In this document: positions 1 to 15,297 of the stretch, in pieces
Layout of the letters: each line of letters starts with the position of its first letter
Numbering within the stretch: the stretch's first letter is position 1
IMG/VR virus record: IMGVR_UViG_2651869816_000009
Length of the DNA: 20,000 nucleotides
Source: an uncultured virus (IMG/VR IMGVR_UViG_2651869816_000009)
Taxonomy: Duplodnaviria; Heunggongvirae; Uroviricota; Caudoviricetes
Reading direction: 5' to 3' (one strand)
Made by a program: the position numbers and the translations under genes
Notes under the pieces: generated by a model
Told to the model about the DNA's origin: nothing
Seen by the model: the letters and a program-made list of their open reading frames with translations, nothing else
The model's database searches: none

Positions 1-765
1 TTTGTATTTATCAATGTCAGCTTCTTCATAACTGTCTAACGTGGCCTTTCCGTAGAAATAGGCCTGTTCTGTATAGATCATAGTAATAGCGTTACGCAAC
101 GGTGCTTTCATTTTCTCGGCAAACCGTACGGCTATTTCATCAGCATGTAGGCCCTGTAAAACGCCTTGTGTCATTTCACCGCGCAAATGGAATAATAGTA
201 TTCTCTTATTCTCCCATAAACGATCACTGAATTGGTTACCACTCCAGGGGTAACTTAACACACTTTTGATCATCTTGTCATTAAGTTCGTACACCTTACT
301 TTGTATACCATGCCTGTAAAAGTCGTATTTATTACTGATTAAAGTGTCCTTAAACGTTGATGTAAATAGGTTGCAAAGGCTTTTTTCTTCTGTCAACGCT
401 ATTTTCCCTAACTTGATTAGCATTTCACTTTGTACAGCTTCTAATCTACTAAGTTTTTTCATGTCCAGGTGGGCTTTCACATCCTGGGCAATGTTCGGCG
501 CTATGATCTGATCACTATTCTGTAATTCATTCAGAAACTCCACTAAACTAATACGCCTGTCATGTTTCTCGCGCTTATTAAGAGCCTTGACCAACTCGCT
601 ATAGTCAAAACCCTTTCGCGATAGATGGGCCCGCATTTCGGCCGTTACTTCCTTTTCAGCGCGTGCGAATGATTGACGCATACGCTTTTCTAGTTTCTCG
701 GCTTCAATGTATCCTTTCGCTTCCTGGGCTTCAGCGCGTTTGGCCCAATACATTTCACTATTCAT
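1..765 (-). CDS. Minor head/head morphogenesis protein (SPP1 gp7 / Mu gpF-like), runs off the window at its 3' end
   Basis: Not in the ORF track because it is truncated. Hand translation MNSEMYWAKRAEAQEAKG...NYPWSGNQFSDRLWENK shows the YWxKR and WSG-FS-R-W motifs typical of this family; lies directly downstream of the portal. Confidence 0.85.
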   Translation of the reverse strand, partial: MNSEMYWAKRAEAQEAKGYIEAEKLEKRMRQSFARAEKEVTAEMRAHLSRKGFDYSELVKALNKREKHDRRISLVEFLNELQNSDQIIAPNIAQDVKAHLDMKKLSRLEAVQSEMLIKLGKIALTEEKSLCNLFTSTFKDTLISNKYDFYRHGIQSKVYELNDKMIKSVLSYPWSGNQFSDRLWENKRILLFHLRGEMTQGVLQGLHADEIAVRFAEKMKAPLRNAITMIYTEQAYFYGKATLDSYEEADIDKYK

Positions 766-768
766 GAT

Positions 769-2241
769 CTACTTTCCTTTTCCTGGCGTTTGATCTTCGT
801 CACCGTCAGAAAGTTGTCGCTCTTGTGTAGCATCGTTCTTTCCTTGTTCTTCCACGTTATCATTTTCCCCACTGAAAGTATCTTTGTACGAGTCATACTC
901 TTCTTCCTCCTGTTCTTTCTTCATTTCTATTAAGTGTTCAATGTCTTGTACAGCAGATAGATATTGATAGATAAACTTATCTGGTAGTCCAGCTTGACGC
1001 AATTTCACAACAAGATCAGCTTCTTCTAAATAATTAGCTGGTAAGTTAGGTGTAAATTGGATTTTGACGTCTTTTAATCCAAACTCTTTTGATCCTGGCA
1101 ACTTATCAAGGTATCCTTTGATGATCCCTAATTGATCTGTTAGCGCACGGTTAAACATACGCTCTTTTTGCCCGCGTACTTGCTCCAGGGCCAACAATTT
1201 ATATTTAATAGCGATCCCAGACAAGTTACCGCCAAATTCTTTATCATTCATGTTTGGAACGAATGTATATTTGTGTATATCGTTCTCTACACGGGTTTTC
1301 ATGTTCTCGTTAAACGTGTCATTGATCTGTTTTACAAGCCATTCAGCATCCCCGTTTTCATCTAACAGCATTACTTTATCTTCTTTTAGGCTGTTTATAT
1401 CATCCTGGTTTGTTTCGTTCATGTTAACCAGCTTTAGGATCGCGTCAGTGAAGTCAGATAAGTCTTCCATTGATCCAGATTGCAGATCGTTATACGCGTC
1501 AATAGTTGGTAGAATATCTTCATAGTCTCCTAATTCAAACTTATTGTTCTGTATCTTAATAACTGGAATACGTGGGTTTCCGTCTTCGTCTACAATGTTG
1601 TGTACCTGTTCTTCTTCCTGGCTCATGTTCTCAATGGAAATGTCCAGGATTTCGTTTAATGGTTGTCCTAAAATCTTTCCTTCATACACAAACGAGTATT
1701 TAATGTATTGCACCTTGTCATAGATCGTCATTTCTACCTTGATTTCATTATCTTTCGTTACTGTCTCACTAAAACGAATAACGTCTGTGATCTTAGGTTT
1801 AATAGAGTCGTCATAGATCGCAATTGTATGGCGCGGATCAATGTCTTTATAGTTCAGTTCTCCAGATTCATCGTGATAGAACAAGCGGAATGCACGGCCA
1901 TAAATAGACATATCAAGGGCATTATCATAATCCACTGTTTGCCCGTCATTTTCATCCATAATGTCAAGTGCTGGCTCTAATGCTTCAGTTTCCGTTGTGT
2001 TATACGTTACTGGCATTCCCATGAAATAACCCGTGCTGATCGTTGCTGTATACTTAGGGAAGTTGTGAACGATCCTAAACGTCTTGTTACCGTTCTTCCT
2101 ATCTTTCTTATTCTTTATTTCATGATGTCCCATGTAGTATTTGTATAGTTTTTGTAGGGCCAAATATCCCTTACTATTCCCAACTCCTTCTTTGATACGA
2201 AAATCAAAGTAAAATTCTTTCGCTTCATCAAATGTAAGCAT
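769..2241 (-). CDS. Phage portal protein, SPP1 gp6-like
   Basis: 490 aa; YYxGxH, HNFPKY...GYFMGxPV, IDAYN, GNLSGIAIKYKL and FTPNLP motifs; acidic tail; follows terL. Confidence 0.95.
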   Translation of the reverse strand: MLTFDEAKEFYFDFRIKEGVGNSKGYLALQKLYKYYMGHHEIKNKKDRKNGNKTFRIVHNFPKYTATISTGYFMGMPVTYNTTETEALEPALDIMDENDGQTVDYDNALDMSIYGRAFRLFYHDESGELNYKDIDPRHTIAIYDDSIKPKITDVIRFSETVTKDNEIKVEMTIYDKVQYIKYSFVYEGKILGQPLNEILDISIENMSQEEEQVHNIVDEDGNPRIPVIKIQNNKFELGDYEDILPTIDAYNDLQSGSMEDLSDFTDAILKLVNMNETNQDDINSLKEDKVMLLDENGDAEWLVKQINDTFNENMKTRVENDIHKYTFVPNMNDKEFGGNLSGIAIKYKLLALEQVRGQKERMFNRALTDQLGIIKGYLDKLPGSKEFGLKDVKIQFTPNLPANYLEEADLVVKLRQAGLPDKFIYQYLSAVQDIEHLIEMKKEQEEEEYDSYKDTFSGENDNVEEQGKNDATQERQLSDGDEDQTPGKGK

Positions 2242-2255
2242 GTTATCAATCCTTT

Positions 2256-3575
2256 CTAGAATCCTAATTGTGATCGGCTCATACTTCTTACTTTGCCTTG
2301 TTTCTTCATGTCCTTCTCCATTGCATAACGCACCATATCAATTGTGTGATTATCTTTATCTTGTAAACGTGGTCTAGGGTTGCCGTCCTTATCCGTTTCC
2401 CAATCAGCGTTTTCAAACTCACTCAATGTATTAGGGCAACGTTTCGGATCAATAACGATCGCGTATAGATCGCCCAGCCATTCCGTGCCGTACTCAACAC
2501 TATCTGGCCCTTTCTTAGCACCCTTCACCTTTCTTATATCGTGTTCGTTCTTTAATTCAGCAATAGACTTCGGCTCGGCACTATCACACGTTATTTCTAT
2601 ATCTTGATAGCCTTTTTTCTTGATCCATTCAGCTAACTTCCTATTTGATATTTGCACTCCATACAATTCATCGAATATGTATAACGTGTTCTTCTTTCTA
2701 TCAAAATGCATACGGCCAAACGCTAGCGGATCAGTAGCATAACCAAAATCAATCCCTTGACGTATGTTATCGAATTGACTGATCTGTTCGTCTGTTATTT
2801 CAGCACTAACAATGTTATCGAATGGTACAACGCCAGACCCTATTGCTTCGCCGAGATATTCCCAGCGATACTTTAGCGGGTTCATTTCCTTTTCAATTTC
2901 AGCTTCTTCATAGAATGCCTTTGTTAAATGTTTGTTATCTAAATACGTTGAATGGTTTACATGTGTGTTATCTGGTATGAATGAACTGTTATATTTCTTG
3001 TTCAGCCAGTGAGCGCGTCTTTTAGGCGGGTTATAGCTGTAGAAGAATGTATATTCATAGTTTGGTAGTTCTGGCCTATGCTCTGGCTTGATCTCAAACT
3101 CACCACGTAATATTGATTTCTCAATGATAGATATTTCTTCTTCTTTTCTAAACTCGCCGATCTCTTCCACCCATAAACCCATGATTGGAAACTTAGCATC
3201 TTTAATAGACTTGATCCGTTCTGGTTCTTCACATCCGAGAAAATATATCTTATTCCCTCTGGGCTTGTACTCGATCACCAGGCGTGACGGTATGCAACGG
3301 AATAAATGAGCAATACCTAATATCTCCATTGCTTCTTTTAGCTGTTCAAATACCGATCTAACAACTGTATTCTGTACTTTGCGCAATACCAGCCAACTGA
3401 TCGGATATTCCATAATGTCCATTAGTATGCGGAATGGTATGAAGTAGCTTTTACCAGACGCACGGCCACCCTTTAACACATAACGTAAACAGTCGCGCAT
3501 TTCAGATAGATAATAAACTTTACGAAAACGCGGGCTGATCACGTTTCGCATATCTATATGAACGTTGTTACTCAT
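2256..3575 (-). CDS. terL: Terminase large subunit, PBSX family
   Basis: Walker A KGGRASGKS, Walker B WVEE, SYNPP, nuclease motifs GIDFG, CDSAEP and DNHTIDMVRYA. ATG at 3575 follows a GGGGTGG SD (the track start at 3596 is probably too long). Confidence 0.95.
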   Translation of the reverse strand: MSNNVHIDMRNVISPRFRKVYYLSEMRDCLRYVLKGGRASGKSYFIPFRILMDIMEYPISWLVLRKVQNTVVRSVFEQLKEAMEILGIAHLFRCIPSRLVIEYKPRGNKIYFLGCEEPERIKSIKDAKFPIMGLWVEEIGEFRKEEEISIIEKSILRGEFEIKPEHRPELPNYEYTFFYSYNPPKRRAHWLNKKYNSSFIPDNTHVNHSTYLDNKHLTKAFYEEAEIEKEMNPLKYRWEYLGEAIGSGVVPFDNIVSAEITDEQISQFDNIRQGIDFGYATDPLAFGRMHFDRKKNTLYIFDELYGVQISNRKLAEWIKKKGYQDIEITCDSAEPKSIAELKNEHDIRKVKGAKKGPDSVEYGTEWLGDLYAIVIDPKRCPNTLSEFENADWETDKDGNPRPRLQDKDNHTIDMVRYAMEKDMKKQGKVRSMSRSQLGF

Positions 3576-3646
3576 TCGACCACCCCAAACACCCATAAAA
3601 TGAAGTATAGGGCCGATAGAATGATGAATATATCAAACATACTCAT
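3572..3646 (-). CDS. Putative 24-aa membrane micropeptide (MSMFDIFIILSALYFILWVFGVVE)
   Basis: ATGA overlaps with both the upstream ORF and terL; purine-rich SD; hydrophobic. Confidence 0.55.
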   Translation of the reverse strand: MSMFDIFIILSALYFILWVFGVVE

Positions 3647-3753
3647 TTCCTTCTTTTCCTCTCACACCTGTTTAATAGGGCCATCGGTATTGTTACCATT
3701 GATAACATCAAGATAGATACAGCAATACCTTGCCAGGCTTCTAACGTAGACAT
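3643..3753 (-). CDS. Putative 36-aa membrane peptide (MSTLEAWQGIAVSILMLSMVTIPMALLNRCERKRRK)
   Basis: GGGAGTGA SD; one TM segment plus basic tail; stop overlaps the next ATG. Confidence 0.6.
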   Translation of the reverse strand: MSTLEAWQGIAVSILMLSMVTIPMALLNRCERKRRK

Positions 3754-3845
3754 AACTTATCACTCCCATACCACTTCATAGGATATAAAACACGGCCAAT
3801 TCTGAAATACTCAATTCCGCTTTTCGTTGTTCCATACATCAGCAT
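3741..3845 (-). CDS. Putative 34-aa peptide (MLMYGTTKSGIEYFRIGRVLYPMKWYGSDKLCLR)
   Basis: AGGGAG SD inside the terS 3' end; start overlaps the terS stop; fills the terS-terL gap. Confidence 0.4.
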   Translation of the reverse strand: MLMYGTTKSGIEYFRIGRVLYPMKWYGSDKLCLR

Positions 3846-4327
3846 TCACACTCCCTATAATGTTTGTTACAGTCTGGGCATGTATCACCAATTGATCCAT
3901 TGATCGTAACGTTTGCTGTTGTCTCATTTTCCTGGCGTTCGATCCATAACCTATGACGTTTACCTAACTGAATTCCCGCATTGATTCGTTCGCCTATTGA
4001 CGGCTCTATTGTTGAGATAACTTGTTCACCCATACCAACACCGCGTAACGTCTTTCCTGTAGCTTCTCCACGCATTACAGATGTTAGAAACTCTAATACT
4101 TCATTTCCGTCCGCAATGCGCTTAGAATCAACGTCAGACATCCGAGAATCAATATAAGACGAAACATTAACATTCTTTAACAAACGAGAACTACCAGCCG
4201 ATACTATAGAATCACTTTTACAATCGTAACCAGCCCTTCTATATGCTTCAGTTGCATTTCCCGTTTCTATGAAATAATCAGCAAATCTTTTTTGCCTTTC
4301 ATTTAACCCATGATTCATTCTTTCCAC
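3839..4327 (-). CDS. terS: Terminase small subunit (Terminase_2 family)
   Basis: LNERQKRFADYFIETGNATEAYRRAGY and EVLEFLTSVMRGE motifs; the start may be ATG 4318. Confidence 0.92.
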   Translation of the reverse strand: MERMNHGLNERQKRFADYFIETGNATEAYRRAGYDCKSDSIVSAGSSRLLKNVNVSSYIDSRMSDVDSKRIADGNEVLEFLTSVMRGEATGKTLRGVGMGEQVISTIEPSIGERINAGIQLGKRHRLWIERQENETTANVTINGSIGDTCPDCNKHYRECEC

Positions 4328-4365
4328 CTTCCTTAATTGGTTACTACGATCGTAGTTACTCTATG

Positions 4366-4374
4366 ATTATACCA
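4366..4374 (-). promoter_or_regulatory. Extended -10 promoter (TGGTATAAT) for the terS/late operon
   Basis: TGnTATAAT about 40 nt upstream of terS and just downstream of a terminator; the repeated 18-bp motif (4379-4396) covers the -35 position. Confidence 0.6.
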
Positions 4375-4399
4375 TAAATGTTTAATAGTTTTGGATCAA

Positions 4400-4427
4400 G
4401 AAAAAAGAGACTGTATTAATAGTCTCT
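4400..4427 (-). terminator. Intrinsic terminator after ORF 4416-4754
   Basis: AGAGACT-N8-AGTCTCT followed by TTTTT on the minus strand. Confidence 0.6.
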
Positions 4428-4754
4428 TAATCGTTGCACGATATTTAATTCTACATAGTCGATAGAATCACGAGGAATGCTTACAACATTACCACTACCC
4501 GTCATGCCGTGGATCGTGTCAGCCATGTCAGTTTCATCATCTTTCATTTCTTTATAAATCATCTCTTCAGTGATTGTAACACCTTGTTCTTTTTCGAATT
4601 CCGTGATGTCTTCATACAACATAACAGCGCGCCCGCTTTTTAAATGTACTTGCATTTGAATTTCTCGAATGTGTGTATGATTGTCTCCAGGTTTCTTTTC
4701 TACCTCTGGTTGATCAACCGTTTCTTTTACCTTGTTTTCATTTTTATTTTCCAT
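4416..4754 (-). CDS. Hypothetical protein (112 aa)
   Basis: AAGGAGG SD before ATG 4754 (MENKNENK...); overlaps the upstream ORF stop. Confidence 0.75.
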   Translation of the reverse strand: MENKNENKVKETVDQPEVEKKPGDNHTHIREIQMQVHLKSGRAVMLYEDITEFEKEQGVTITEEMIYKEMKDDETDMADTIHGMTGSGNVVSIPRDSIDYVELNIVQRLRDY

Positions 4755-5010
4755 TTTCCTTTTCCTCCTTATATAGCTTCTTATAACCCTTATCAATGTT
4801 ATGAATGCCTAACAGTGTGCCAACAACGAATAATAACCAATGATACCAGGCGTTCCCGTTCACTACAGTTTGCCAGGCGCTACCGAAAATGATTAAACCG
4901 CATACCTTTTGTAACCAGCCGTTTTTAATATCAATTGTCACACTGATCTTAACGTCTTTCCAAAATGCTTTAGTGAACAATGGTTTTAACTTTTTCAACT
5001 TCTCTTTCAT
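4744..5010 (-). CDS. Hypothetical membrane protein (2 predicted TM)
   Basis: GAGGTGA SD; two hydrophobic segments with basic ends. Confidence 0.75.
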   Translation of the reverse strand: MKEKLKKLKPLFTKAFWKDVKISVTIDIKNGWLQKVCGLIIFGSAWQTVVNGNAWYHWLLFVVGTLLGIHNIDKGYKKLYKEEKENGK

Positions 5011-5042
5011 GTTGTCACCTCTTTTATTTTTTGCTCTTATAG

Positions 5043-5072
5043 AAGAAAAACAAGACTGGCGAAAGTCTTGTT
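5043..5072 (-). terminator. Intrinsic terminator closing the non-coding transcript
   Basis: AACAAGACT-TTCGCC-AGTCTTGTT then TTTCTTCT on the minus strand. Confidence 0.75.
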
Positions 5073-6457
5073 CTCAACTTGTAACTATAAAAGAAATGGT
5101 TTAGTAGGGACTTGAACCCTATCAGACCCGTTTTAAAGGCTCTGTTATACCAGATAGCTAAACCATGATTCCCAGCGATCAACGCCAGGATCATTTTTAT
5201 TCTCCTTAGAGTCGGATATACTTTAGATCGTTATCATCCGTTTCTATCCATTTTGTGTGTGACATGATCGCCTAGTTATCAGTTAGAATCATGTTTTATT
5301 AAACTATCGTATGTTTGATAATAACCTTTGATAGTTATTTACCGTTATAGGACGGTATCACCTGTTAGTAGAACAATAATTACCCACCAATGCAAGTGAG
5401 TTTCTATTGTTATTTGTTTTGTGTTTATAATAGTGTCCAGGTATCTGAAAACAGCTATTAAGAGGTTTCCACACCTCATAAGACGTACAAGGTAAAAAGG
5501 AGGTTGGGCCATGCCTAGCCCAATGTATAATCAAAAATTCCAACGGGGATAAAAATGTTATACAAAAACCTTATACGCCTTATGAGATCATGAAGTCCAT
5601 TAGTAAAACGATTTGTGAGTTACCCTATAGACTTCATTTACCTCATATATGTGTTTGTGTCTCAATAAGTTTGTATATGTCCGAAAGGATCATAAAACAA
5701 GCTATTCAGTTGTATTGGTTTCCTTTAGTTTTCCATCTATGGAGAAGTTTTAAGACTCCTTATTCAGTCTGGTTTTCTGTACGTGTGTTTTCCATCACTT
5801 GAATTTTCGAGACTTTATTGTCATTTGTTACATGATGTTATTTCGCAAAAATACTACACTTTTTACTATGATCTACTTTTAACAGTAGATAAAAAATAGT
5901 AGTAACGGTTTTAACCGTCCCTTTAAAGATAGAAGTAACACTTATGACCTTTCGATCTGGCTTTCTACCCTTAAAGGGAAGGACAAAACGGTTGTCCAAC
6001 CCCACCAACAAGGAGTATCTAACAATGAACAAGTAACCTATCATCTTCACAATGATCTGGAGGTAACCAGCCTCCTTTAAAGGCACAAACGAGAAGAACG
6101 TGTGTGAGTTAGCAAGGTTAATATATATAGCAATTGGAGGTGAACATATATTAAAAACTCGCTTATGCCCTTAAAGGAAGATGTCTCTTCCCTCGATTCA
6201 TTTAAACAGCTTTCACCGTTCCCATTGATTCGATCCATTTCAGAAAACAAGAATTTTACGTATAGACATAGACTTTGAGCAATTATGAAATTAGATGTTG
6301 TTAGCGTATGTGTGAGCAATTACTAACAGTAAGGCGTTTTAACAAGGTTACGAAAACAAACGATGTTAAATGTAGAATATTTTCTCTTGTATATCGAATA
6401 CAAAATTTAATATGTTCTGGTTTTCCGACCAGGTAAGAGAGCGTGTGTCCCTCTTAC
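5045..6457 (-). ncRNA. Large structured non-coding RNA or sRNA cluster (~1.4 kb), family unknown
   Basis: No credible long ORF; sigmaA promoter upstream and terminator downstream; more than 15 hairpins; three 17-23 bp stems whose non-Watson-Crick positions are all G-U on the minus strand; GNRA loops. Confidence 0.7.
5097..5164 (-). tRNA. tRNA-like element / pseudo-tRNA (68 nt, isotype unassignable)
   Basis: Acceptor stem GGTTTAG/CTAAACC+A and perfect T arm TAGGG-TTCAAGT-CCCTA. The D/anticodon region is only 36 nt (about 41 canonical) and imperfect. Confidence 0.6.
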
Positions 6458-6461
6458 AATT

Positions 6462-6490
6462 ACTATAGTAACACCTCTAATTCTATTCAA
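6462..6490 (-). promoter_or_regulatory. SigmaA-type promoter driving the ncRNA region
   Basis: TTGAAT(6490-6485)-17 nt-TATAGT(6467-6462), AT-rich upstream; the predicted +1 begins a hairpin (6457-6433). Confidence 0.7.
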
Positions 6491-6564
6491 CAAGAATTGT
6501 ATACTTTTAGATATTGTTTTTTATAAAGTTGGTTTTAAATTATCAGATAGTTTATTTTGACAAT

Positions 6565-6591
6565 AAAAAAGAGCCCTTGTTATAAGGACTC
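6565..6591 (-). terminator. Intrinsic terminator after ORF 6580-6819
   Basis: GAGTCCTT-ATAAC-AAGGGCTC-TTTTTT on the minus strand. Confidence 0.75.
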
Positions 6592-6819
6592 GACAACTTC
6601 ATTATATGTTCTTTGTTCATGGTATAGCCTAGCTTCAACGTTAACGGGATTTAAACCGTATCTATTAGCAAAACCTACTATCAGTTTCTCTATATCATCC
6701 TCAATCAATACATAACCTTCTTTAGATGGTAATTCATAAGTGTAGTGTTCGTAGATTACCAATAGATCACGATATTCATTTTCCCTCTCGTTTTGTTTAA
6801 TAGTTTTAGATTCATTCAT
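6580..6819 (-). CDS. Hypothetical protein (79 aa), stand-alone unit
   Basis: AAGGAG SD; own terminator; AT-rich upstream region. Confidence 0.75.
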   Translation of the reverse strand: MNESKTIKQNERENEYRDLLVIYEHYTYELPSKEGYVLIEDDIEKLIVGFANRYGLNPVNVEARLYHEQRTYNEVVESL

Positions 6820-7070
6820 GTTATTAATCTCCTTTTGGGTTTATGGTTTTAGTTTTCTTTCGATTTATTTATAAATGGACTTATCCATTAAGGCCAAAAC
6901 ATCAGCGGTTTTTCTTTTAAAATCATTTAACTTCCTTATTATATATATCACGAATATTTTCAATAGTAAAATAATATTTTTTATACATAGCCTTGAACCC
7001 TTGATAACTCTACATTCTTACTTTGTATCACACACTTGACAAGATTTTTGGAATAATATAACAAACGTTG

Positions 7071-8011: not shown

Positions 8012-8166
8012 TAACGTAACACCTTCTTTGCAAACTCTTTGTTAACTGTATCCATGCGCTTATTTAAACTTCTTACAAGATCACTTAAATTCAATTTACC
8101 TTCCCTATGTTGCTGTAGTAATGATTCCATCATACTAAGTTGACCGTATACTTTATTTTCATTCAC
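8011..8166 (-). CDS. Small hypothetical protein (51 aa)
   Basis: GTG start overlapping the stop of 8163-8762; open until TAA at 8011. Confidence 0.5.
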   Translation of the reverse strand: MNENKVYGQLSMMESLLQQHREGKLNLSDLVRSLNKRMDTVNKEFAKKVLR

Positions 8167-8762
8167 GAATAATCCCACACTTTCGCTTTTTTGTTGTAGA
8201 TCGCCACCACTAATTGAATTCCATACTTCACTTCAAATAAATGCTTTCTCAAACTGAAATCTCGTGGTATGGCCATTTTGCTTCCTTTTACATCAAAGGC
8301 CACTTTTCCGACTCCTGTTATATCGCACACCAGATCAGGCGTGTATGACTTCTTTCTAACCTTCCTTTTCCCAGCCTGGTTAACAATGCTGGCGATCTCG
8401 TACCCGTCTAATAGATGATACGTTTTGTGCAACTCAATATTTGATACGTGTTTTGTATTCGACATCATGATATAAAAGTCGCGTTCTGTCATAGAATCAA
8501 ACTTGTGACCGTCATATTCCACTTTGACAGCATTGACTTTCTTTCTCGGCTTCTTCTTTGTCTTGAACATACCTTCTATGTCATATTCTTTTTTAAGCCA
8601 CTTAACAGCCGTAGCCTTTGTTCCAGCAACGCCCTTTAAAGTTTCGTTTCCGTCCTCGTTTATTATGTAATATCTATAGGACAACACGTTTTTCTTAATG
8701 CACTCTCTCACCTCAAAGGTAAGAGAGCCCGTTTTATTCATCCAAACTTTATTCAATCTCAT
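8163..8762 (-). CDS. DUF1064-family PD-(D/E)xK nuclease (putative Holliday junction resolvase) with N-terminal extension
   Basis: YDGHKFDSxxExxFY, YTPDL, DVKG and FSLRKHLF motifs. Confidence 0.8.
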   Translation of the reverse strand: MRLNKVWMNKTGSLTFEVRECIKKNVLSYRYYIINEDGNETLKGVAGTKATAVKWLKKEYDIEGMFKTKKKPRKKVNAVKVEYDGHKFDSMTERDFYIMMSNTKHVSNIELHKTYHLLDGYEIASIVNQAGKRKVRKKSYTPDLVCDITGVGKVAFDVKGSKMAIPRDFSLRKHLFEVKYGIQLVVAIYNKKAKVWDYS

Positions 8763-8901
8763 TTAACGCGCGCTCCTTTATTTCTTCAGCTATCGCGCCC
8801 ATTCTGTCATGATCCATTTCTTCATACGGCGCATGTTTTAATCTCCATAATTCAAACTCTAATTCTACGATGGTTTTATCTTTAATATCTTTATTCGCCA
8901 T
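8749..8901 (-). CDS. Small hypothetical protein (50 aa)
   Basis: MANKDIKDKTIVELEFELWRLK...; overlaps both neighbours; AAAGGA SD. Confidence 0.55.
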   Translation of the reverse strand: MANKDIKDKTIVELEFELWRLKHAPYEEMDHDRMGAIAEEIKERALNEIE

Positions 8902-9019
8902 CTTTCATGATCCTTTCAGCCTTTTCTAGCAAGATCATACCGCCAGCAACTACAGGCGTAATAACCGCGGTTGAAACAACTAAGTAATAAACGAATTCAC
9001 CTAATAAATATGTCATCAT
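8891..9019 (-). CDS. Small membrane protein (42 aa)
   Basis: MMTYLLGEFVYYLVVSTAVITPVVAGGMILLEK...; GGAGG SD; ATGA coupling. Confidence 0.6.
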   Translation of the reverse strand: MMTYLLGEFVYYLVVSTAVITPVVAGGMILLEKAERIMKDGE

Positions 9020-9249
9020 GCTTCTTCCTCCTTGATCCATTCTCCATTGATTCTTAATAGCTTAGTATTTTCATAAATACCTTCTAAATCTTTTCTTCTA
9101 TTCACATTGTTTTCAGCGATCCTTTCAACTGTTTCGCGAGCACGCCTTACAAGATCAATGTATTCCAGTTCCAATCTTTCGTTTTGTTTTTCGTAGTTTT
9201 CAACTTCTCTTTTGGTAACTACAATTCTAGCTTCTGGCCACTTTTTCAT
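9016..9249 (-). CDS. Hypothetical coiled-coil protein (77 aa)
   Basis: Track ORF; coupled overlaps on both sides. Confidence 0.7.
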   Translation of the reverse strand: MKKWPEARIVVTKREVENYEKQNERLELEYIDLVRRARETVERIAENNVNRRKDLEGIYENTKLLRINGEWIKEEEA

Positions 9250-9458
9250 ATCGCCCTTTCCTCCCTCATGATCTCGAACAACTTATCTTCTTCTTGCTTG
9301 ATGAATTTGTTTTGTTCGTCCAACTCTCTTTCTAGCTTCTTTAACGCTACAGCCGTGCATCCTCCTTGCTTTTTGCTTCTGATCCTCCATTCTTGATTGG
9401 ATCGGATCGCATACCATTCTCCAAGGTTTCTGATCAATGTTTCTTTCACTTGTAACAA
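9246..9458 (-). CDS. Hypothetical protein (~67-70 aa)
   Basis: Track ORF; the start may be GTG 9449 overlapping the upstream stop. Confidence 0.65.
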   Translation of the reverse strand: MLQVKETLIRNLGEWYAIRSNQEWRIRSKKQGGCTAVALKKLERELDEQNKFIKQEEDKLFEIMREERAI

Positions 9459-9646
9459 CCCCTTTTTATCATTTCATTAACAATAAGTTTATTCCATTTT
9501 CCAGAATTGTTTAATAGATATGGATTTACAGCCGTTGAACAATCGTTAAATTTAATCTTTCCGTACTGTAGCAAAGATTCAATAACAATTATAAGCGACA
9601 TAACTCTATCGTTCTTAGCTTCCATATACATTTCTTTTACCGTCAT
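9446..9646 (-). CDS. Hypothetical protein (66 aa)
   Basis: ATGA overlap with the helicase stop. Confidence 0.7.
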   Translation of the reverse strand: MTVKEMYMEAKNDRVMSLIIVIESLLQYGKIKFNDCSTAVNPYLLNNSGKWNKLIVNEMIKRGCYK

Positions 9647-10977
9647 TCCTTTTCGACCTCTATAAACCTATTTGTCGGCCCGTGGAAAATCATGTTGTAT
9701 GTACCTGGCTGTGATTGTCTCGCTTTAGCAACTATTATTTCAACGTCCTGGAATTCGTTTTTTCGCGCTTCTGGATCATAATAGTCTTCTCTATGCGGGA
9801 ATATAATTACATCGGCCACCTGTTCAATTTCACCCGTTTCGCGAATGTCAGACATTGCGGGCCTTTTGTCTTCCCTGTTTGTATTGCCACGGTTTAACTG
9901 TACTAATAGAATGATAGGCACTTTCAAACGAACGGCCAACTCTTTCAACTCTCGTACAATGTGCGCAAACCTTGTTTTATCTTCATTCATGCCCTCACCT
10001 TCTACTTTAACGTGTGATATGTGGTCAATCATGAATACACATTTTTTAGTAGGGTTTTCTTTAACGGTTTTTCTGATCTCAGCTTTGATCAAACGCAAAT
10101 CTTTTTCTTCGCTGATCTCTAAAGGCATATTACTTAATTCACCAACAGCGACAGTATATTTCGCATAAGATTCTCCTGGTTTGCCTGTTCGCCTATCAAG
10201 TATAGGGAAAAACTTGTTAGGGTTTCGCATTGATCCGACAGGAAGGTGTGATTGACCAGCGATCCAACGATCAATACACTGGAATCCTGGCATTTCACAA
10301 CTGAAATACTTCCCGTGGTACTCGTTTTCTAAATCCCTTGACGCTCCATTTCTCATACTATCGAGTGTCAGGGCCGTTTTACCCATACCAGGACGACCAC
10401 CAACAATGATCAAGTCGCCGTCTTGCCAACCGTCTGTAAAGTTGTTCATTCCGTCCCAGCCAGTATCGACACCGCTTATACCTTCACTTTTCATATTAGC
10501 GTGTGTATTAACCCTATTGGAAAGCATATCCTGGAAAGTTTCTCTGTTCACAACCTTTTCTTCACTAATCTTTGTAACGTTGTTTAGAAGTGTTTCTGAC
10601 GCGTGTGAACTGTTCCTATCTTCAGTAGCCTTTAAAAACTCTGACGCATGTTTTCTCATTTCCTCTACTTCGATAAAATCAAACATTTTCTTTTCATAGA
10701 AACTAAAGTTTGACTTGTTTGATCCGTATGACATAACACTCATTAAATGATCCATGTCCAATTGACTATGATCAATAATCATTTTAGGGCTTACATCTAT
10801 TTCTTTATCAGATAATTTACAGATAGTTTCGAATAACTCTCTATTCTTTGCTGATAAAAAGTGTTTTTTAGAAAGCCTACATTCATCTATCAATGTATTA
10901 TCTTCAATCATTGCTTCCAGTACACTTATTTCCATTTCTGTATGGTTGTTGTATTTCGCTAATGCATTATTACCCAT
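9643..10977 (-). CDS. dnaB: Replicative DNA helicase, DnaB family
   Basis: Walker A GGRPGMGKT, FSCEM, IDHI, QLNR...RP.MSDIRETGEIEQVAD and KAR motifs. Confidence 0.95.
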   Translation of the reverse strand: MGNNALAKYNNHTEMEISVLEAMIEDNTLIDECRLSKKHFLSAKNRELFETICKLSDKEIDVSPKMIIDHSQLDMDHLMSVMSYGSNKSNFSFYEKKMFDFIEVEEMRKHASEFLKATEDRNSSHASETLLNNVTKISEEKVVNRETFQDMLSNRVNTHANMKSEGISGVDTGWDGMNNFTDGWQDGDLIIVGGRPGMGKTALTLDSMRNGASRDLENEYHGKYFSCEMPGFQCIDRWIAGQSHLPVGSMRNPNKFFPILDRRTGKPGESYAKYTVAVGELSNMPLEISEEKDLRLIKAEIRKTVKENPTKKCVFMIDHISHVKVEGEGMNEDKTRFAHIVRELKELAVRLKVPIILLVQLNRGNTNREDKRPAMSDIRETGEIEQVADVIIFPHREDYYDPEARKNEFQDVEIIVAKARQSQPGTYNMIFHGPTNRFIEVEKE

Positions 10978-11014
10978 TGTTGTAATCTCCTTTCTAATAG
11001 ATCGCTAGACGCTT

Positions 11015-11215
11015 TTAAAAGCGCCTTTCGTTTCTGTAGTTACAAGCGTCTACATCTGTATTGATCCTTGTAATGTCTAGCACCAGGCCAACAAATAAGA
11101 AATTCAATGTAAACATTTTAACTAATCCTGTAGCCCACTGGCCCACATAAAACTTATGCGCTCCAAATGTTCCAAATAATGCCCATAAAATCCACGCTGT
11201 ACTTTTCTTTTTCAT
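11015..11215 (-). CDS. TM2-domain membrane protein
   Basis: KKKSTAWILWALFGTFGAHKFYVGQ matches the TM2 signature. Confidence 0.85.
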   Translation of the reverse strand: MKKKSTAWILWALFGTFGAHKFYVGQWATGLVKMFTLNFLFVGLVLDITRINTDVDACNYRNERRF

Positions 11216-11346
11216 AATTCGTTACCTCCGATTGTATGTATATATCAATACTTATTGTTAAATAGTGTGTATATACATGTCAACCGAACTTTAAAATTAC
11301 CGATATTTCAGTTTTTTGATTCTCTCTTTGTTTAATAGAACAGGAT

Positions 11347-11451
11347 TTATAGGTATGTAATACAGTAACTCATGATGTATACAACCATGAAACAAAACGC
11401 TATTATACCAGATGCCGTCACAAACGCTTCTTTTGCTTCAGCTTTATTCAT
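11347..11451 (-). CDS. Small membrane peptide (34 aa)
   Basis: GGAGGT SD; MNKAEAKEAFVTASGIIAFCFMVVYIMSYCITYL. Confidence 0.6.
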   Translation of the reverse strand: MNKAEAKEAFVTASGIIAFCFMVVYIMSYCITYL

Positions 11452-11590
11452 TGTCAATAACCTCCTGTATGTCTATTACCCTTTCATAAGTACAAGCTAA
11501 CATTTCACATTCGATGTATAAATCACCATCAAGTCTAGCGTTTATAAGACCTCCACACTCTGGGCATGTATTTTCAGTTGTTTCCCACAT
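11444..11590 (-). CDS. Small zinc-ribbon protein (48 aa)
   Basis: GGAGG SD; CPECGG...CEMLAC. Confidence 0.65.
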   Translation of the reverse strand: MWETTENTCPECGGLINARLDGDLYIECEMLACTYERVIDIQEVIDNE

Positions 11591-11591
11591 A

Positions 11592-11798
11592 TCAATAACC
11601 CTCCATTCGTTTTAAACATGTTTCTGGGCTTGTTCTCATTGTGTTTTCATCAAGACGCCACTCTACCATGTTTATAACTCGGCTCGGCCCTGTTGCATAA
11701 TTCTGGATTGTTTGGAAACGTCTTATAACAGTACCTTCCTTTTGATCGTAAATGTTGCGCACCTTATCACCGTTATTAAACTTGAATTTATTAAACAT
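11592..11798 (-). CDS. Hypothetical SH3-like small protein
   Basis: KFNNGDKVR...EGTV...VEW pattern; GGAGGTGA SD. Confidence 0.7.
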   Translation of the reverse strand: MFNKFKFNNGDKVRNIYDQKEGTVIRRFQTIQNYATGPSRVINMVEWRLDENTMRTSPETCLKRMEGY

Positions 11799-12072
11799 TC
11801 GCCGTCACCTCCAGATCGCACGGCATGCATAGCGGGCCATCTTCGTATGATTCACAATGACACTTGATACATTCTTTCGGTACATCCTGGTGTGAAATAA
11901 TGCTGTATTTCATGTTTTCTGGCACATTAACTCTTTCGAACTGTTTATCTAGCATGATGCACCAATCAATAAATCCGTAGATACAAGCAACGCTTTTCGC
12001 GTCACTCATATCATAATATGTATTTTTACCTGTTAATAGGTCGCGTTGTTTAATGAAAATTTCTTCTCTCAT
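11791..12072 (-). CDS. Hypothetical protein with C-terminal CxxC..CxxC
   Basis: GGAGGT SD; first gene after the internal promoter. Confidence 0.7.
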   Translation of the reverse strand: MREEIFIKQRDLLTGKNTYYDMSDAKSVACIYGFIDWCIMLDKQFERVNVPENMKYSIISHQDVPKECIKCHCESYEDGPLCMPCDLEVTANV

Positions 12073-12203: not shown

Positions 12204-12240
12204 GATTTATTTATAAATTGTTTAATAAAATTGGATAATG

Positions 12241-14420: not shown

Positions 14421-14954
14421 TTACTTATCTCCTTTGTATTTGTATCTAATTTGCTTCCCGTTTCCTTTACCTACTCCAGTGCGTTCATTATCCCTTCTTC
14501 TTTCAAGAATTCCTTTCCTTACCATTCCATTTAACATAACGTTTCCAGTGTCTTTGTTGAAAATTCCAGATGTTTCATACATGAATTTGTTTGTTGCCCA
14601 ACCGCCGTGATCTTCCAGAATTGTGCGGGCCAAAAACATTTTTGGATTAAATCGTTTATCACCAGGTTTAATATAGAAATATTGATCGGCTGTTTTAACC
14701 TTCTTTTTAAGCTGTACAATTTGAGTGTTACCGCGTTTCTTCGTCTCCAGGTAACCAAAACTTACTAACTCCCTAAACGCTTCTTTCATAGTTTCATAAG
14801 ATAACTGTAATTCTTCGATAGCTTCATCAATATCAAATGTAACAACTTTATTTTCTTCTAAGAATGAAATGTCATTCACATACTCCAGGATAACCGCTGG
14901 CGTCATTCCGAGTTTATTCGCGTGTTCAATATTGAAATGAATAATTTTGTTCAT
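14421..14954 (-). CDS. Hypothetical protein, probable tandem winged-HTH
   Basis: LQLSYETMKEAFRELVSFGYL and LNGMVRKGILER wHTH-like patterns. Confidence 0.7.
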   Translation of the reverse strand: MNKIIHFNIEHANKLGMTPAVILEYVNDISFLEENKVVTFDIDEAIEELQLSYETMKEAFRELVSFGYLETKKRGNTQIVQLKKKVKTADQYFYIKPGDKRFNPKMFLARTILEDHGGWATNKFMYETSGIFNKDTGNVMLNGMVRKGILERRRDNERTGVGKGNGKQIRYKYKGDK

Positions 14955-14982
14955 TGTTATTATCTCCCTTTGTTTAATAGAA

Positions 14983-15297
14983 TTAGATTCTTTTCATTAA
15001 TGCTTCGAAATACATATTCTCTTTGAATGCTAATGTATCTCTGTAAGGCCTTCTTAAACTCCCTGGTTCTTGCCGTGTGCATGACTTTGGCCTTTCTTCA
15101 TCATCTACTTCTACAACCATATAGATCGGCTCTACAAAGTCATAACCACGGTTTAAAAGTTCGTCAGTTTGATCTATCAAAGTAAATAGATTGTATGACT
15201 TCTTTGCGAATGGTTTTGTTTTGTCGCTTTCCTTACCAAAAGAGAAGTTATTTCTTAAACGTTTGCGCGTTATTACCTTCATGTACTTTAGGTTCAT
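14983..15297 (-). CDS. Hypothetical protein (104 aa)
   Basis: Track ORF; GGGAG SD; in operon. Confidence 0.7.
   Translation of the reverse strand: MNLKYMKVITRKRLRNNFSFGKESDKTKPFAKKSYNLFTLIDQTDELLNRGYDFVEPIYMVVEVDDEERPKSCTRQEPGSLRRPYRDTLAFKENMYFEALMKRI

What the first reader, a model, noticed from the sequence alone, without database searches (positions are those of the whole stretch)
5490..6150. Multiple anti-Shine-Dalgarno segments in the ncRNA: possible multi-target antisense array
Seen: the plus strand carries translation-start look-alikes that lead only to trivial ORFs: AAGGAGGTTGGGCCATG (5497-5513, 13 aa), GGGGATAAAAATG (5545-5557, 12 aa), AAGGAGTATCTAACAATG (6010-6027, 3 aa), TGGAGGT (6058-6064) and GGAGGTGAACATAT (6136-6149). 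In the minus-strand RNA these read ACCUCCUU, AUCCCC, ACUCCUU, ACCUCC and UCACCUCC, mostly in or next to loops and junctions. Known: Firmicute sRNAs such as RNAIII and RsaE/RoxS use C-rich loops to block SD sequences. Inference: a cassette of antisense guides that silence translation of host, defence or competing-phage genes.
Basis: partly seen in the sequence, partly recalled or inferred. Interest (0 to 1): 0.8.

Follow-up and report, generated by a model that had tools for sequence, protein, structure and literature searches.

The report
Anti-ribosome-site motifs in phage RNA
A Bacillus phage carries a previously undescribed 1.4-kb folded non-coding RNA with several conserved copies of the ribosome's own mRNA-docking sequence, and one of them looks like an antisense switch for a phage early gene.

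Summary
They lie in a 1.5-kb ORF-poor gap of a Bacillus cereus-group temperate phage (Lwoffvirus, TP21-L-like). The gap looks like its own minus-strand unit: promoter, about 1.41 kb of folded RNA, a tRNA-like 3' module, then a terminator. ACCUCC occurs 3 times against 0.18 expected. Four of the five motifs keep their core in 9 of 9 copies.

They are not a uniform guide array.
- **m5 (UCACCUCC)** and **m1 (CCUCCUUU)** are predicted to be exposed. They match the 16S rRNA tail, and only the core is invariant.
- **m4** is buried in an invariant GGAGG:CCUCC hairpin.
- **m2** is not conserved.
- **m3** is an antisense copy of the translation start of a phage early gene (ORF 14421-14954), with 13 contiguous pairs plus CUCC in register. 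It ranks first in the window and in TP21-L and third in KLEB30, and 0 of 20 shuffles reach its score.

No extended targets turned up in other phages. Host targets could not be tested. The plus-strand micro-ORFs are not conserved.

A ribosome or bS21 decoy role, as in OLE RNA, is the main rival. No Rfam family matches, and my paper searches found no description.

The parts
6462..6490 (-). Sigma-70-like promoter, TTGAAT (6490-6485), 17-nt spacer, TATAGT (6467-6462). The start site is inferred near 6455.
   Evidence: It is the only promoter-like site on either strand of 4900-6900 and is invariant in 8 of 9 copies. The RNA-library contig edge at 6447 is consistent with this start.
5045..6455 (-). 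About 1.41-kb structured non-coding RNA body.
   Evidence: No ORF of 50 aa or more stays intact across homologues. Covariation was reached by 0 of 500 shuffles in two domains. For 5895-6200 the minus strand has z=-5.19 and the plus strand z=-1.0. 697 of 1411 positions are invariant in 9 of 9 copies.
6118..6154 (-). AU-rich hairpin (11 bp) whose 15-nt apical loop (6143-6129) carries m5, UCACCUCC (6143-6136).
   Evidence: GUUCACCUCCA is invariant in 9 of 9 while the 3' half of the loop varies. Probability unpaired is 0.25-0.85.
6071..6180 (-). Long helix 6180-6158 / 6093-6071 (CCUUUAAGGG pairs with CCUUUAAAGG) that encloses the m5 hairpin.
   Evidence: 18-23 bp, 2 pairs with compensatory change, 100% of cells paired, and 3 invariant G-U pairs that favour the minus strand.
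6057..6075 (-). m4: GGAGG (6075-6071), loop YUGGUUA, CCUCC (6063-6059). This is an intramolecular SD:anti-SD hairpin. GGAGG can alternatively pair with CUUCC at 6180-6176.
   Evidence: Both arms are invariant in 9 of 9. The 8-mer is unpaired with probability only 0.001-0.011. No covariation test is possible because nothing varies.
6003..6035 (-). m3 anti-TIR element: UUGUUCAUUGUUA (6032-6020, anti-start), a 4-nt spacer, CUCC (6015-6012, anti-SD), then a G-rich tail.
   Evidence: It is complementary to the TIR of ORF 14421-14954. CUCC is also predicted to pair with GGGG 6003-6000 within the RNA.
14943..14984 (-). Predicted target: translation initiation region of ORF 14421-14954 (177 aa, phrog_18215, function unknown). 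The 13-nt perfect match is at 14959-14947.
5918..5979 (-). Second long CCUUUAAGGG/CUUUAAAGGG hairpin. Its apical loop takes a 54-nt insert in TP21-L and L006.
   Evidence: 16-17 bp, 3-4 pairs with compensatory change, 100% paired.
5711..5833 (-). Variable module, present in the window and L004 and absent or replaced in the other copies.
   Evidence: The X1 and X2 contigs also skip it.
5475..5586 (-). Three-way-junction domain. The closing helix is 5586-5569 / 5492-5475. One branch, 5564-5524, holds m2. The hairpin is 5523-5504. The single-stranded junction strand 5503-5493 (CCUCCUUUUUA) is m1.
   Evidence: Alignment A3 has 38 pairs, 9 with double changes, reached by 0 of 500 shuffles. m1 is unpaired with probability 0.53-0.91.
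5165..5194 (-). Stable hairpin that ends exactly at the 5' end of the tRNA-like module. It is preceded by a conserved sense-strand SD+AUG (5207-5192).
5097..5164 (-). tRNA-like 3' module: 7-bp acceptor stem, T arm GGGUUCAAGUCCC, no D stem and no canonical anticodon loop.
   Evidence: Rfam tRNA 16.6 bits (cut-off 29), mascRNA 23.9 bits, ARAGORN none.
5045..5075 (-). Hairpin plus U-run (read by eye as an intrinsic terminator; not among the sites the scan listed), just before the SD of ORF 4744-5010.
   Evidence: Conserved in 9 of 9 copies.

Best explanation
The look-alikes are minus-strand features of a roughly 1.41-kb structured, independently promoted ncRNA. The RNA is confined to TP21-L-like (Lwoffvirus) temperate phages of the Bacillus cereus group and sits between the early/replication genes and the terminase genes.

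Shown here:
- the region is non-coding
- it is structured on the minus strand, with covariation
- it is flanked by a promoter and a terminator
- it ends in a swappable tRNA-like module
- its CCUCC cores are over-represented and conserved

Inferred: the RNA acts in trans on translation initiation regions by base pairing.
- m3 is an inverted copy of the TIR of the early gene ORF 14421-14954 (SD, spacer, AUG and codons 2-3). It would occlude that gene's ribosome binding site and, more weakly, several similar 'AUGAAC/AUGAAU' starts in the same module.
- The exposed m1 and m5 copies of the 16S anti-SD could seed contacts with strong SDs.
- m4 is an internal SD:anti-SD hairpin and m2 is not a functional motif.
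- RNase P cleavage at the tRNA-like module would leave the RNA ending in the 5194-5165 hairpin. This last step is inferred by analogy only.
For: Context: seven phage records and seven IMG/VR contigs carry the locus. The genes around it are phage genes on the minus strand.

Transcription unit: promoter and upstream-gene terminator come from the scan; the 3' hairpin plus U-run comes. In RNA library X1, one contig covers 4937-6447 at depth 11.2 and nothing was laid on 6448-6727. Flanking contigs are at depth 2.3-6.6.

Structure: z=-5.19 on the minus strand against -1.0 on the plus strand. There are 9 of 38 and 7 of 79 pairs with double changes, and 0 of 500 shuffles reach this.

Motifs: ACCUCC occurs 3 times against 0.18 expected. 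m1 and m5 are predicted accessible.

m3 and its target:
- 13 contiguous Watson-Crick pairs across the AUG, plus CUCC:GGAG with equal 4-nt spacers.
- The accessibility-corrected score of -18.3 kcal/mol ranks 1 of 32 TIRs in the window, and 0 of 20 shuffled RNAs reach it.
- The same gene ranks 1 of 51 in TP21-L and 3 of 54 in KLEB30.
- Duplexes of -24 to -36 kcal/mol form in 7 of 7 phages where both loci were available.
- In the 77%-identical L015, m3 pairs with its own TIR by 19 WC + 3 G-U + 1 mismatch over 23 nt, and both spacers are 1 nt shorter.
- Similarity stops at about +9 of the gene, so it covers only the TIR (read).
Against: - There is no experimental or strand-specific evidence. Contigs cannot show strand, ends or level, and the X1 contig runs on past the terminator.
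- The best null score (-17.3) is close to the observed -18.3.
- Cognate ncRNA-TIR pairs are no better than non-cognate ones, so this is conservation, not covariation. The copies are close relatives.
- Exact antisense k-mers between the RNA and phage mRNAs are not enriched genome-wide.
- m3's CUCC is predicted to be mostly paired with GGGG within the RNA.
- m3 could be a neutral scar of an inverted duplication at a recurrent gene-boundary motif. TATTAAAC precedes 6 of 52 TP21-L starts.
- The window and L015 retain different halves of the complementarity.
- m1 and m5 have no specific target, and their best partners lie within the null range.
Confidence: 0.4

Rival explanations
1. Ribosome or ribosomal-protein decoy. 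The CCUCC elements mimic the 3' tail of 16S rRNA. The invariant GGAGG:CCUCC hairpin (m4) mimics the SD:anti-SD duplex. On this reading the RNA binds bS21, 30S subunits or another factor that reads the anti-SD, as proposed for OLE RNA, rather than targeting particular mRNAs.
For: - m5 equals 8 nt and m1 equals 9 nt of the Bacillus 16S tail. The tail sequence is recalled, and CCUCCU is confirmed as the tail motif in PMC12054373 (passages read).
- Only the cores are invariant while their flanks vary.
- m4 is a perfect SD:anti-SD stem, invariant in 9 of 9 copies.
- OLE's P6 SD/ASD mimic binds bS21.
- GOLLD, another large phage RNA with linked tRNAs, is reported to pull down ribosomes (bioRxiv 2024.12.08.627333, passages read).
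Against: - There is no sequence or CM similarity to OLE, GOLLD or ROOL: 0 Rfam hits even at E of 10 or below.
- A 5-bp hairpin is a weak resemblance.
- It does not explain the anti-AUG and codon complementarity of m3.
Confidence: 0.2
2. Purely architectural motifs. The CCUCC/CUCC runs exist to pair with purine runs (GGAGG, GGGG, AAGGAG) or to form junction strands in a large folded RNA. That RNA's function (for example assembly, or tRNA-linked as in GOLLD/ROOL) would have nothing to do with SD sequences.
For: - m4 pairs with GGAGG and m3's CUCC pairs with GGGG.
- AAGGAG is also over-represented on the same strand, 3 times against 0.29 expected, so potential partners exist.
- The RNA is modular, with swappable tRNA-like inserts like GOLLD linkers.
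- Other motifs are just as enriched: CACAC 7 against 1.19 and CCUUUAA 4 against 0.18.
Against: - m1 and m5 are predicted single-stranded, with no conserved partner found.
- Their exact identity to the anti-SD, and m3's 13-nt match to a real TIR, would then be coincidences.
Confidence: 0.25
3. Cis-acting long leader of the late operon. Transcription from the 6490-6462 promoter runs through the folded RNA into ORF 4744-5010, terS and terL. The terminator, tRNA-like processing site and anti-SD elements would then control read-through or late-gene translation in cis.
For: - The locus lies directly upstream of the late genes on the same strand.
- The X1 contig continues about 700 nt beyond the terminator.
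- m5 can pair with the SD of ORF 4744-5010 at -16.1 kcal/mol.
Against: - A conserved hairpin plus U-run, read as a strong terminator, separates the two.
- The m5 pairing is within the null range.
- Contigs across two genes do not show one transcript (tool caveat).
Confidence: 0.1
4. The plus-strand SD+ATG look-alikes are real starts of translated micro-ORFs.
For: SD-ATG spacing is good at m1 (7 nt) and m3. The ATG is kept in 8 of 9 copies at m1. At m3 it is kept in all 9, although L015's is offset by 3 nt in the alignment.
Against: - Peptides are not conserved. At m1 they are MPSPMYNQKFQRG, MPSPKNLMHLMRS and MPRLKTLYAL, with ACG at the start in L015.
- At m3 the lengths are 3, 4, 6 or 30 aa.
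- The m2 ORF is absent in 3 of 9 copies.
- There is no promoter-like site on the plus strand in 4900-6900.
- The plus strand is not unusually structured, and G-U pairs favour the minus strand.
Confidence: 0.03

Closest known systems
GOLLD and ROOL large ornate phage/prophage RNAs
   Same: Phage-encoded, very large (hundreds of nt or more) and highly structured. Modular, with variable regions. Physically linked to tRNAs, and tRNAs sometimes sit inside GOLLD's linker. Function unknown, and ribosomes are reported in GOLLD pull-downs (passages read).
   Different: No covariance-model match at all. About twice as long. The linked elements are tRNA-like with no canonical anticodon loop. Carries anti-SD copies. 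Known only from one phage genus. Multimer formation is untested.
OLE RNA P6 SD/anti-SD mimic that binds ribosomal protein bS21 (PMC12054373)
   Same: A large Bacillota ncRNA holding a perfect copy of the 16S tail (CCUCCU) paired to an SD-like strand in a stem. m4 here is GGAGG:CCUCC.
   Different: No OLE homology. Phage, not chromosomal. Two further anti-SD copies are unpaired. Protein binding is untested.
Phage P1/P7 c4 antisense repressor RNA
   Same: A phage-encoded RNA that acts in trans on the ribosome-binding region of a gene of the same phage, and is matured by RNase P through a tRNA-like feature.
   Different: c4 is about 77 nt and belongs to proteobacterial phages. There is no Rfam C4 hit here. 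The RNA here is 1.4 kb with many other domains.
Firmicute C-rich trans-acting sRNAs (RNAIII, RsaE/RoxS)
   Same: Pyrimidine-rich exposed motifs complementary to SD sequences, with multi-target potential.
   Different: Those are 100-500 nt, use UCCC/CCCC loops, and their specificity comes from flanks. Here the exposed motifs equal the 16S tail itself and the flanks are not conserved. No Rfam match.
MALAT1-mascRNA type 3' end formation (tRNA-like element cleaved by RNase P)
   Same: A long ncRNA is followed directly by a tRNA-like module. A stable structure sits immediately 5' of the presumed cleavage site. The mascRNA model gives the best, sub-threshold, Rfam score for 5098-5164 (23.9 bits).
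   Different: MALAT1 is eukaryotic and nuclear. The resemblance is architectural only. Cleavage is untested.
Listeria sRNA RliI (RF01487)
   Same: The TP21-L version of 6245-5975 aligns over the full 239-position model at 33.5 bits, E=1e-5. RliI is reported to pair with mRNAs (PMC1807966, passages read).
   Different: The score is below the gathering score of 45. There is no hit for the window at E of 10 or below or for the nearest held record G001. The apical loop with UCACCUCC is not part of the model.

Membership tests
Trans-acting antisense RNA that blocks a ribosome binding site | Own transcription unit (promoter, terminator, RNA detected) | tested here: inconclusive
   A promoter and a hairpin with U-run are present. 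An RNA-library contig ends at 6447 near the predicted start. Contigs give no strand, ends or level.
Trans-acting antisense RNA that blocks a ribosome binding site | Complementarity to a target TIR extending beyond the SD | tested here: met
   Met for m3 only: 13 contiguous pairs plus CUCC in register with the TIR of ORF 14421-14954. It ranks 1 of 32, 1 of 51 and 3 of 54, and 0 of 20 shuffles reach its score. Not met for m1, m2, m4 or m5.
Trans-acting antisense RNA that blocks a ribosome binding site | Pairing segment accessible in the folded RNA | tested here: inconclusive
   Prediction only. m1 and m5 are exposed. m3's anti-start block is 0.05-0.16 against a background of 0.07, m3's CUCC is mostly paired, and m4 is buried.
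Trans-acting antisense RNA that blocks a ribosome binding site | Covariation between guide and target across homologues | tested here: not met
   Cognate pairs are no better than non-cognate ones in a 7 x 7 matrix. The only hints come from L015: three G-U-compatible differences and matched 1-nt shorter spacers.
Trans-acting antisense RNA that blocks a ribosome binding site | Target repression in vivo | not testable with these tools
   Needs reporter or toeprint assays.
GOLLD / ROOL | Match to the family covariance model | tested here: not met
   0 Rfam matches at gathering score over the whole window, and none for these families at E of 10 or below in 4900-6700.
GOLLD / ROOL | Phage-encoded, large, next to or containing tRNAs | tested here: met
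   Phage context. About 1.41 kb. tRNA-like modules sit at the 3' end, and in KLEB30 and L015 they score 45.6 and 48.4 bits on Rfam tRNA.
GOLLD / ROOL | Homo-oligomeric cage | not testable with these tools
   Needs cryo-EM or native gels.
OLE-type SD/anti-SD mimic (bS21 site) | 16S-tail sequence paired with an SD-like strand in a conserved stem | tested here: met
   GGAGG 6075-6071 pairs with CCUCC 6063-6059, invariant in 9 of 9 copies. An alternative pairing of GGAGG with 6180-6176 also exists.
OLE-type SD/anti-SD mimic (bS21 site) | OLE RNA homology | tested here: not met
   No Rfam OLE hit.
OLE-type SD/anti-SD mimic (bS21 site) | bS21 binding | not testable with these tools
   No RNA-protein test is available.
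tRNA (3' module) | Score at or above the Rfam tRNA gathering score, or an ARAGORN call | tested here: not met
   The window scores 16.6 bits against a cut-off of 29. ARAGORN finds 0 genes in the window and in 5 loci. The alternative module in L015 and KLEB30 does pass Rfam, at 48.4 and 45.6 bits.
tRNA (3' module) | Canonical 7-nt anticodon loop | tested here: not met
   The window module has an 8-nt loop on an imperfect stem and no D stem. The L015/KLEB30 module has 18 nt where the model has 9.
rliI (RF01487) | Score at or above the gathering score of 45 bits | tested here: not met
   33.5 bits, in TP21-L only. No hit for the window or for G001.
Protein-coding micro-ORFs (plus strand) | Start codon, frame and peptide conserved in homologues | tested here: not met
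   Peptides and lengths differ, and the m2 ORF is absent in 3 of 9 copies.

The most novel reading that the evidence does not exclude
This is the founding member of a new class of giant modular phage RNAs that interface with translation initiation. A single 1.4-kb transcript would combine three things: exposed copies of the 16S anti-SD and an SD:anti-SD duplex mimic that engage SDs, bS21 or 30S; an antisense copy of an early-gene ribosome binding site that shuts that gene off; and interchangeable tRNA-like modules that recruit RNase P to set its 3' end. That would make it an RNA hub timing the early-to-late switch, and a possible functional clue to the unexplained GOLLD/ROOL-type phage RNAs.
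Probability: 0.2. Interest if true: 0.8.

Novelty: new variant of a known kind. Interest (0 to 1): 0.6.

Why it matters
Large structured phage RNAs such as GOLLD and ROOL are abundant, but their function is unknown. This one is unannotated. TP21-L's record fills it with small ORFs gp51-gp54, and the KLEB30-3S announcement reports no tRNA genes. It has no Rfam family and occurs in cultivable Bacillus thuringiensis/cereus phages.

Unusually, it offers concrete, testable handles:
- a specific predicted mRNA target
- exposed 16S-tail mimics
- an SD:anti-SD hairpin like the bS21 site of OLE RNA
- a tRNA-like processing module that is swapped between relatives while its junction is kept

If any of these work as predicted, it would link a giant phage RNA to control of translation initiation.

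Tried and rejected
- **Rfam:** the whole window at gathering score gave 0 hits, and at E of 10 or below gave only noise (miRNA, snoRNA) plus the weak tRNA and mascRNA hits.
- **Wider homologue searches:** the flanking 79-aa protein found none in genome contigs. The gapped DNA pattern in genome contigs gave 4 hits: two were read and are unrelated repeat/coding sequence, and the other two were not read. The metagenome pattern found 1 contig, the same as an IMG/VR one. Two further viral patterns returned the same 7 contigs. The tRNA-like-2 pattern found only L015's contig. Plasmids gave no match. The genome search could not draw relatives for a virus record, and the window's own assembly is not held.
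- **Raw-read RNA run X22:** 0 reads laid, so it is no test.
- **Genome-wide enrichment of exact antisense k-mers:** not significant. For example, TP21-L at k=12 gave 8 against a mean of 5.3.
- **m4 with the TIR of ORF 11592-11798:** 11 exact nt, -30.8 kcal/mol. Rejected as a conserved target because the AGAUCA flank is replaced in TP21-L, proCM3, KLEB30 and L015, m4 is buried, and 2 of the first 8 shuffles beat its corrected score.
- **m1 with the TIR of the cI-like repressor:** CAUGCCUAG plus GGAGG at equal spacing in the window. The corrected score of -11.9 is inside the null range, the spacing differs in TP21-L, and it is not among TP21-L's top 7.
- **BLAST of the m5 and m3 segments against all phages:** only family self-hits plus matches at E of about 0.006 or weaker in phages of unrelated hosts.
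- **rliI membership:** sub-threshold and variant-specific.
- **Intrinsic terminator reading of hairpin 5523-5504 plus CCUCCUUUUU:** flagged by the scan, but the U-run is separated from the stem and is shortened in L015.
- **tRNA-like reading of the 54-nt TP21-L insert:** it holds GGGUUCGAAUCC, but no cloverleaf appears in the MFE and there is no Rfam hit.
- **First accessibility-corrected scan:** timed out and was rerun in parts.
- **Earlier findings of this scan:** three look-ups returned nothing.
Full report
**Context.** The window is part of a temperate siphovirus of the Bacillus cereus group.
- BLAST of 5050-6600 finds seven phage records at 88-96.5% identity: proCM3, BMBtp2 (two records), TP21-L (two records), BMBtpLA3 and KLEB30-3S. 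TP21-L, proCM3 and KLEB30-3S were opened and are genus Lwoffvirus.
- PHROG hits place portal, terL, terS and small ORFs at 1-5010, and recombination/replication genes at 8163-16683, all on the minus strand. A cI-like repressor and a serine integrase lie on the plus strand at 18004-20000.
- Between ORF 4744-5010 and ORF 6580-6819 lies about 1.5 kb with no conserved ORF.

**Observation.**
- All five strings are at the stated coordinates, and the micro-ORFs are 13, 12 and 3 aa.
- On the minus strand of 5045-6455, ACCUCC occurs 3 times against 0.18 expected (0 of 2000 dinucleotide shuffles). CCUCC occurs 3 times against 0.44 (P=0.01).
- On the same strand AAGGAG (3 against 0.29), CACAC (7 against 1.19) and CCUUUAA (4 against 0.18) are also enriched.

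**What the locus is.**
- *Transcription signals.* A single promoter-like site lies on the minus strand: TTGAAT, 17 nt, TATAGT, at 6490-6462. The upstream gene has its own terminator at 6591-6571. The region ends with a hairpin (5194-5165), a tRNA-like element (5164-5097) and a hairpin with a U-run (5075-5045), just before the SD of ORF 4744-5010. For 5040-5200, z=-4.17.
- *Family size.* I assembled nine distinct copies: the window, three phage records and five IMG/VR contigs. The most distant, L015, is 77.3% identical. No further members appeared in species-representative genomes, metagenome contigs or plasmids.
- *Not coding.* ORFs of 50 aa or more inside the gap are interrupted or frameshifted in divergent copies.
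- *Structure.* RNAalifold on two domains, with pair counting, gives 79 pairs (7 with changes on both sides, 99.4% of cells paired) and 38 pairs (9 with double changes, 97.6% paired). In both, 0 of 500 column shuffles reach the observed covariation, and slid partners drop to 36-55% paired.
- *Strand.* For 5895-6200 the minus strand folds at -98.2 kcal/mol, z=-5.19. The plus strand folds at -65.3, z=-1.0. Invariant G-U pairs in the long helices also point to the minus strand.
- *Expression.* In RNA-seq library X1, a 2102-nt contig covers 4937-6447 at depth 11.2. It skips the variable module 5711-5833. Nothing was laid on 6448-6727, and neighbouring contigs are at depth 2.3-6.6. A DNA-like run (X2) covers that gap. 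This fits a transcript starting near the predicted +1. However, contigs prove neither strand nor ends, and the contig continues past the terminator.
- *No known family.* Rfam has no family for it. My paper searches (TP21-L, Lwoffvirus, and phage/large ncRNA/tRNA-like/Bacillus term sets) found no description.

**tRNA-like modules.**
- The window's 3' element has a 7-bp acceptor stem and a canonical T arm, but no D stem or anticodon loop. It scores 16.6 bits on Rfam tRNA, and ARAGORN finds nothing.
- In L015 a different module replaces it, and KLEB30 carries both. The second module scores 48.4 and 45.6 bits on Rfam tRNA and folds into a cloverleaf. It has 18 nt where the anticodon loop should be, and ARAGORN again calls nothing.
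- In both arrangements the 5194-5165 hairpin abuts the first acceptor nucleotide.
- I infer RNase P cleavage that leaves a hairpin-protected 3' end. This is not shown.

**The five motifs, one by one** (accessibility from a local partition-function calculation on six copies, 8-mer background about 0.07).
- **m5, UCACCUCC (6143-6136).** It sits in the 15-nt loop of an 11-bp AU helix. Probability unpaired is 0.25-0.85. GUUCACCUCCA is invariant in 9 of 9 copies, while the rest of the loop varies.
- **m1, CCUCCUUU (5503-5496).** It is the single-stranded strand of a three-way junction whose helices covary. Probability unpaired is 0.53-0.91. The core is invariant, and the spacers vary in length.
- **m4, ACCUCC (6064-6059).** It pairs with GGAGG 6075-6071. 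Both arms are invariant. Probability unpaired is 0.001-0.011.
- **m3, ACUCCUU (6016-6010).** CUCC is predicted to pair with GGGG 6003-6000. Probability unpaired is 0.015-0.12.
- **m2, AUCCCC.** It is part of a small covarying hairpin, is deleted in 3 of 9 copies and is changed in L015.
- So two are exposed anti-SD copies, one is an internal SD:anti-SD duplex, one is partly masked and one is spurious.

**Targets.**
- *Method.* I scored each segment against the TIRs of the window's 32 ORFs. I then scored the whole RNA against TIRs, adding opening energies for both partners.
- *Top interaction in the window.* It is m3 with ORF 14421-14954 (177 aa, phrog_18215; Pfam gives only a sub-threshold HTH hit). 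Thirteen contiguous Watson-Crick pairs span -5..+8 of the start codon (14959-14947). After equal 4-nt spacers comes CUCC:GGAG, and then a G-U-rich extension. The corrected score is -18.3 kcal/mol, and 0 of 20 shuffled RNAs reach it (best null scores -17.3 and -16.7).
- *Other phages.* The orthologous TIR ranks 1 of 51 in TP21-L (-15.7, with the next at -10.8) and 3 of 54 in KLEB30. Predicted duplexes of -24 to -36 kcal/mol exist in 7 of 7 phages with both loci. In L015 the pairing with its own TIR is 19 WC + 3 G-U + 1 mismatch over 23 nt.
- *What m3 is.* The plus-strand 'start look-alike' at 6010-6027 is therefore an inverted copy of this TIR, including the MNK codons.
- *Results against a specific antisense role.* Cognate pairs are not better than non-cognate ones. 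Exact antisense k-mers are not enriched genome-wide. The margin over the null is small. The TIR belongs to a set sharing TATTAAAC...GGGAG (6 of 52 TP21-L starts), so an inverted recombination scar is possible.
- *Other motifs.* m4's match to GAUCUGGAGGU, the TIR of ORF 11592-11798, is not kept in four other lineages. m1's match to the cI TIR is within the null range.
- *Other phages and hosts as targets.* Beyond the family, the m5 and m3 segments gave only matches at E of about 0.006 or weaker in phages of unrelated hosts. Host mRNAs could not be examined.

**Interpretation.**
- The motifs are real and selected, but they are heterogeneous.
- The best-supported mechanism is base pairing with translation initiation regions. 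m3 would act as an anti-TIR for a phage early gene, and m1 and m5 as generic anti-SD contacts (confidence 0.4).
- In m1 and m5 only the CCUCC core is invariant, and m4 is a perfect SD:anti-SD stem. Both facts fit equally well the precedent of OLE RNA, whose P6 SD/ASD mimic binds ribosomal protein bS21 (PMC12054373, passages read). They also fit the report that GOLLD pulls down ribosomes and carries tRNAs in its linker (bioRxiv 2024.12.08.627333, passages read). This decoy reading (0.2), a purely architectural reading (0.25) and a late-operon leader (0.1) remain open. Translated plus-strand micro-ORFs are unlikely (0.03).
- A sub-threshold Rfam match of the TP21-L variant to Listeria rliI (33.5 bits against a cut-off of 45) is noted but is not membership.

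**Verdict.** The larger result is an undescribed, roughly 1.4-kb modular phage ncRNA with tRNA-like modules and 16S-tail mimicry.

Noticed in passing
window 6447, 6314, 6106/6104, 5787, 5261/5259 (minus strand): CACAC occurs 7 times (5 places) in the RNA against 1.19 expected (P=0.0005). UCACACA at 6108-6102 and GGGACACACGC at the 5' end are invariant in 9 of 9 copies. The 6106 copy lies in a long unpaired internal loop. Meaning unknown; it could be a protein or tertiary-contact motif.
   Followed up: partly
window 6177-6168, 6083-6074, 5977-5968, 5930-5921, 5139-5133 (minus strand): The near-palindrome CCUUUAAGGG / CCUUUAAAGG recurs. It forms the cores of two long hairpins that look like duplicates, and a related CCUUUAAAACGGG sits in the tRNA-like module. 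CCUUUAA occurs 4 times against 0.18 expected.
   Followed up: partly
window 5207-5192 (minus strand): A sense-strand AAGGAG, 7 nt, then AUG is conserved in 9 of 9 copies (ACGGAGG in L015), just before the 5194-5165 hairpin. The ORF it opens is 56 aa in the window but about 10 aa (by eye) in copies with a 4-nt loop deletion, so it is not a conserved protein. It could be a tiny leader peptide or a partner for the CUCC motifs.
   Followed up: partly
L001 (TP21-L) and L006, inside the hairpin equivalent to window 5979-5918: A 54-nt insert in the apical loop contains a T-loop-like GGGUUCGAAUCC and an extra ACUCCU. It does not fold as a cloverleaf in the MFE and has no Rfam hit.
   Followed up: partly
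L002/L041 (KLEB30-3S) 956-1036 of L002; L015 1609-1689: An 81-nt element scores 45.6 and 48.4 bits on Rfam tRNA (cut-off 29), yet ARAGORN calls nothing and the KLEB30-3S announcement abstract says the genome has no tRNA genes. Its anticodon loop is replaced by 18 nt holding a small covarying palindrome (GUGUACAC versus AGCGCGCU).
   Followed up: partly
L034 (TP21-L) starts at 5798, 19482, 23008, 25444, 28481, 29545; window 14984-14955 and 17420-17391: A shared motif, (C)TATTAAAC(A)AAGGGAG, precedes 6 of 52 TP21-L gene starts. GATCTGGA(G/C)G precedes 3 of 52. These may be gene-boundary or regulatory sequences.
   Followed up: no
L001 1281-2153 (TP21-L gp51-gp54); L003 2199-2414 (proCM3 gp33); L002 (KLEB30 gp55, gp56): Small ORFs annotated inside the RNA locus differ between records and are not conserved. 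They are probably over-annotation.
   Followed up: partly
window 5711-5833: A 121-nt module is present in the window and L004 but missing in proCM3, L008, L009, L015 and the X1/X2 contigs. It is replaced by other sequence in TP21-L, L006 and KLEB30. It holds a further AAGGAG and CUCC.
   Followed up: partly
window 5040-6580 in public runs: Twenty listed runs from 18 studies hold part of the stretch, 13 of them on record as RNA. Most of the RNA rows are soil metatranscriptomes holding 7-17% of the sampled words. One (X4) was laid and shows short contigs on 5098-5249, 5465-5604 and 5833-6190 at depth 2-3.5.
   Followed up: partly
window 5703-5680 versus the TIR of ORF 8749-8901: Another segment of the RNA (AGCUUGUUUUAUGAUCCUUUCGGA) can form a 17-bp duplex with GAAAGGAUCAUGAAAG at that gene's start (duplex -27.9, corrected -10.9, within the null range).
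   Followed up: no
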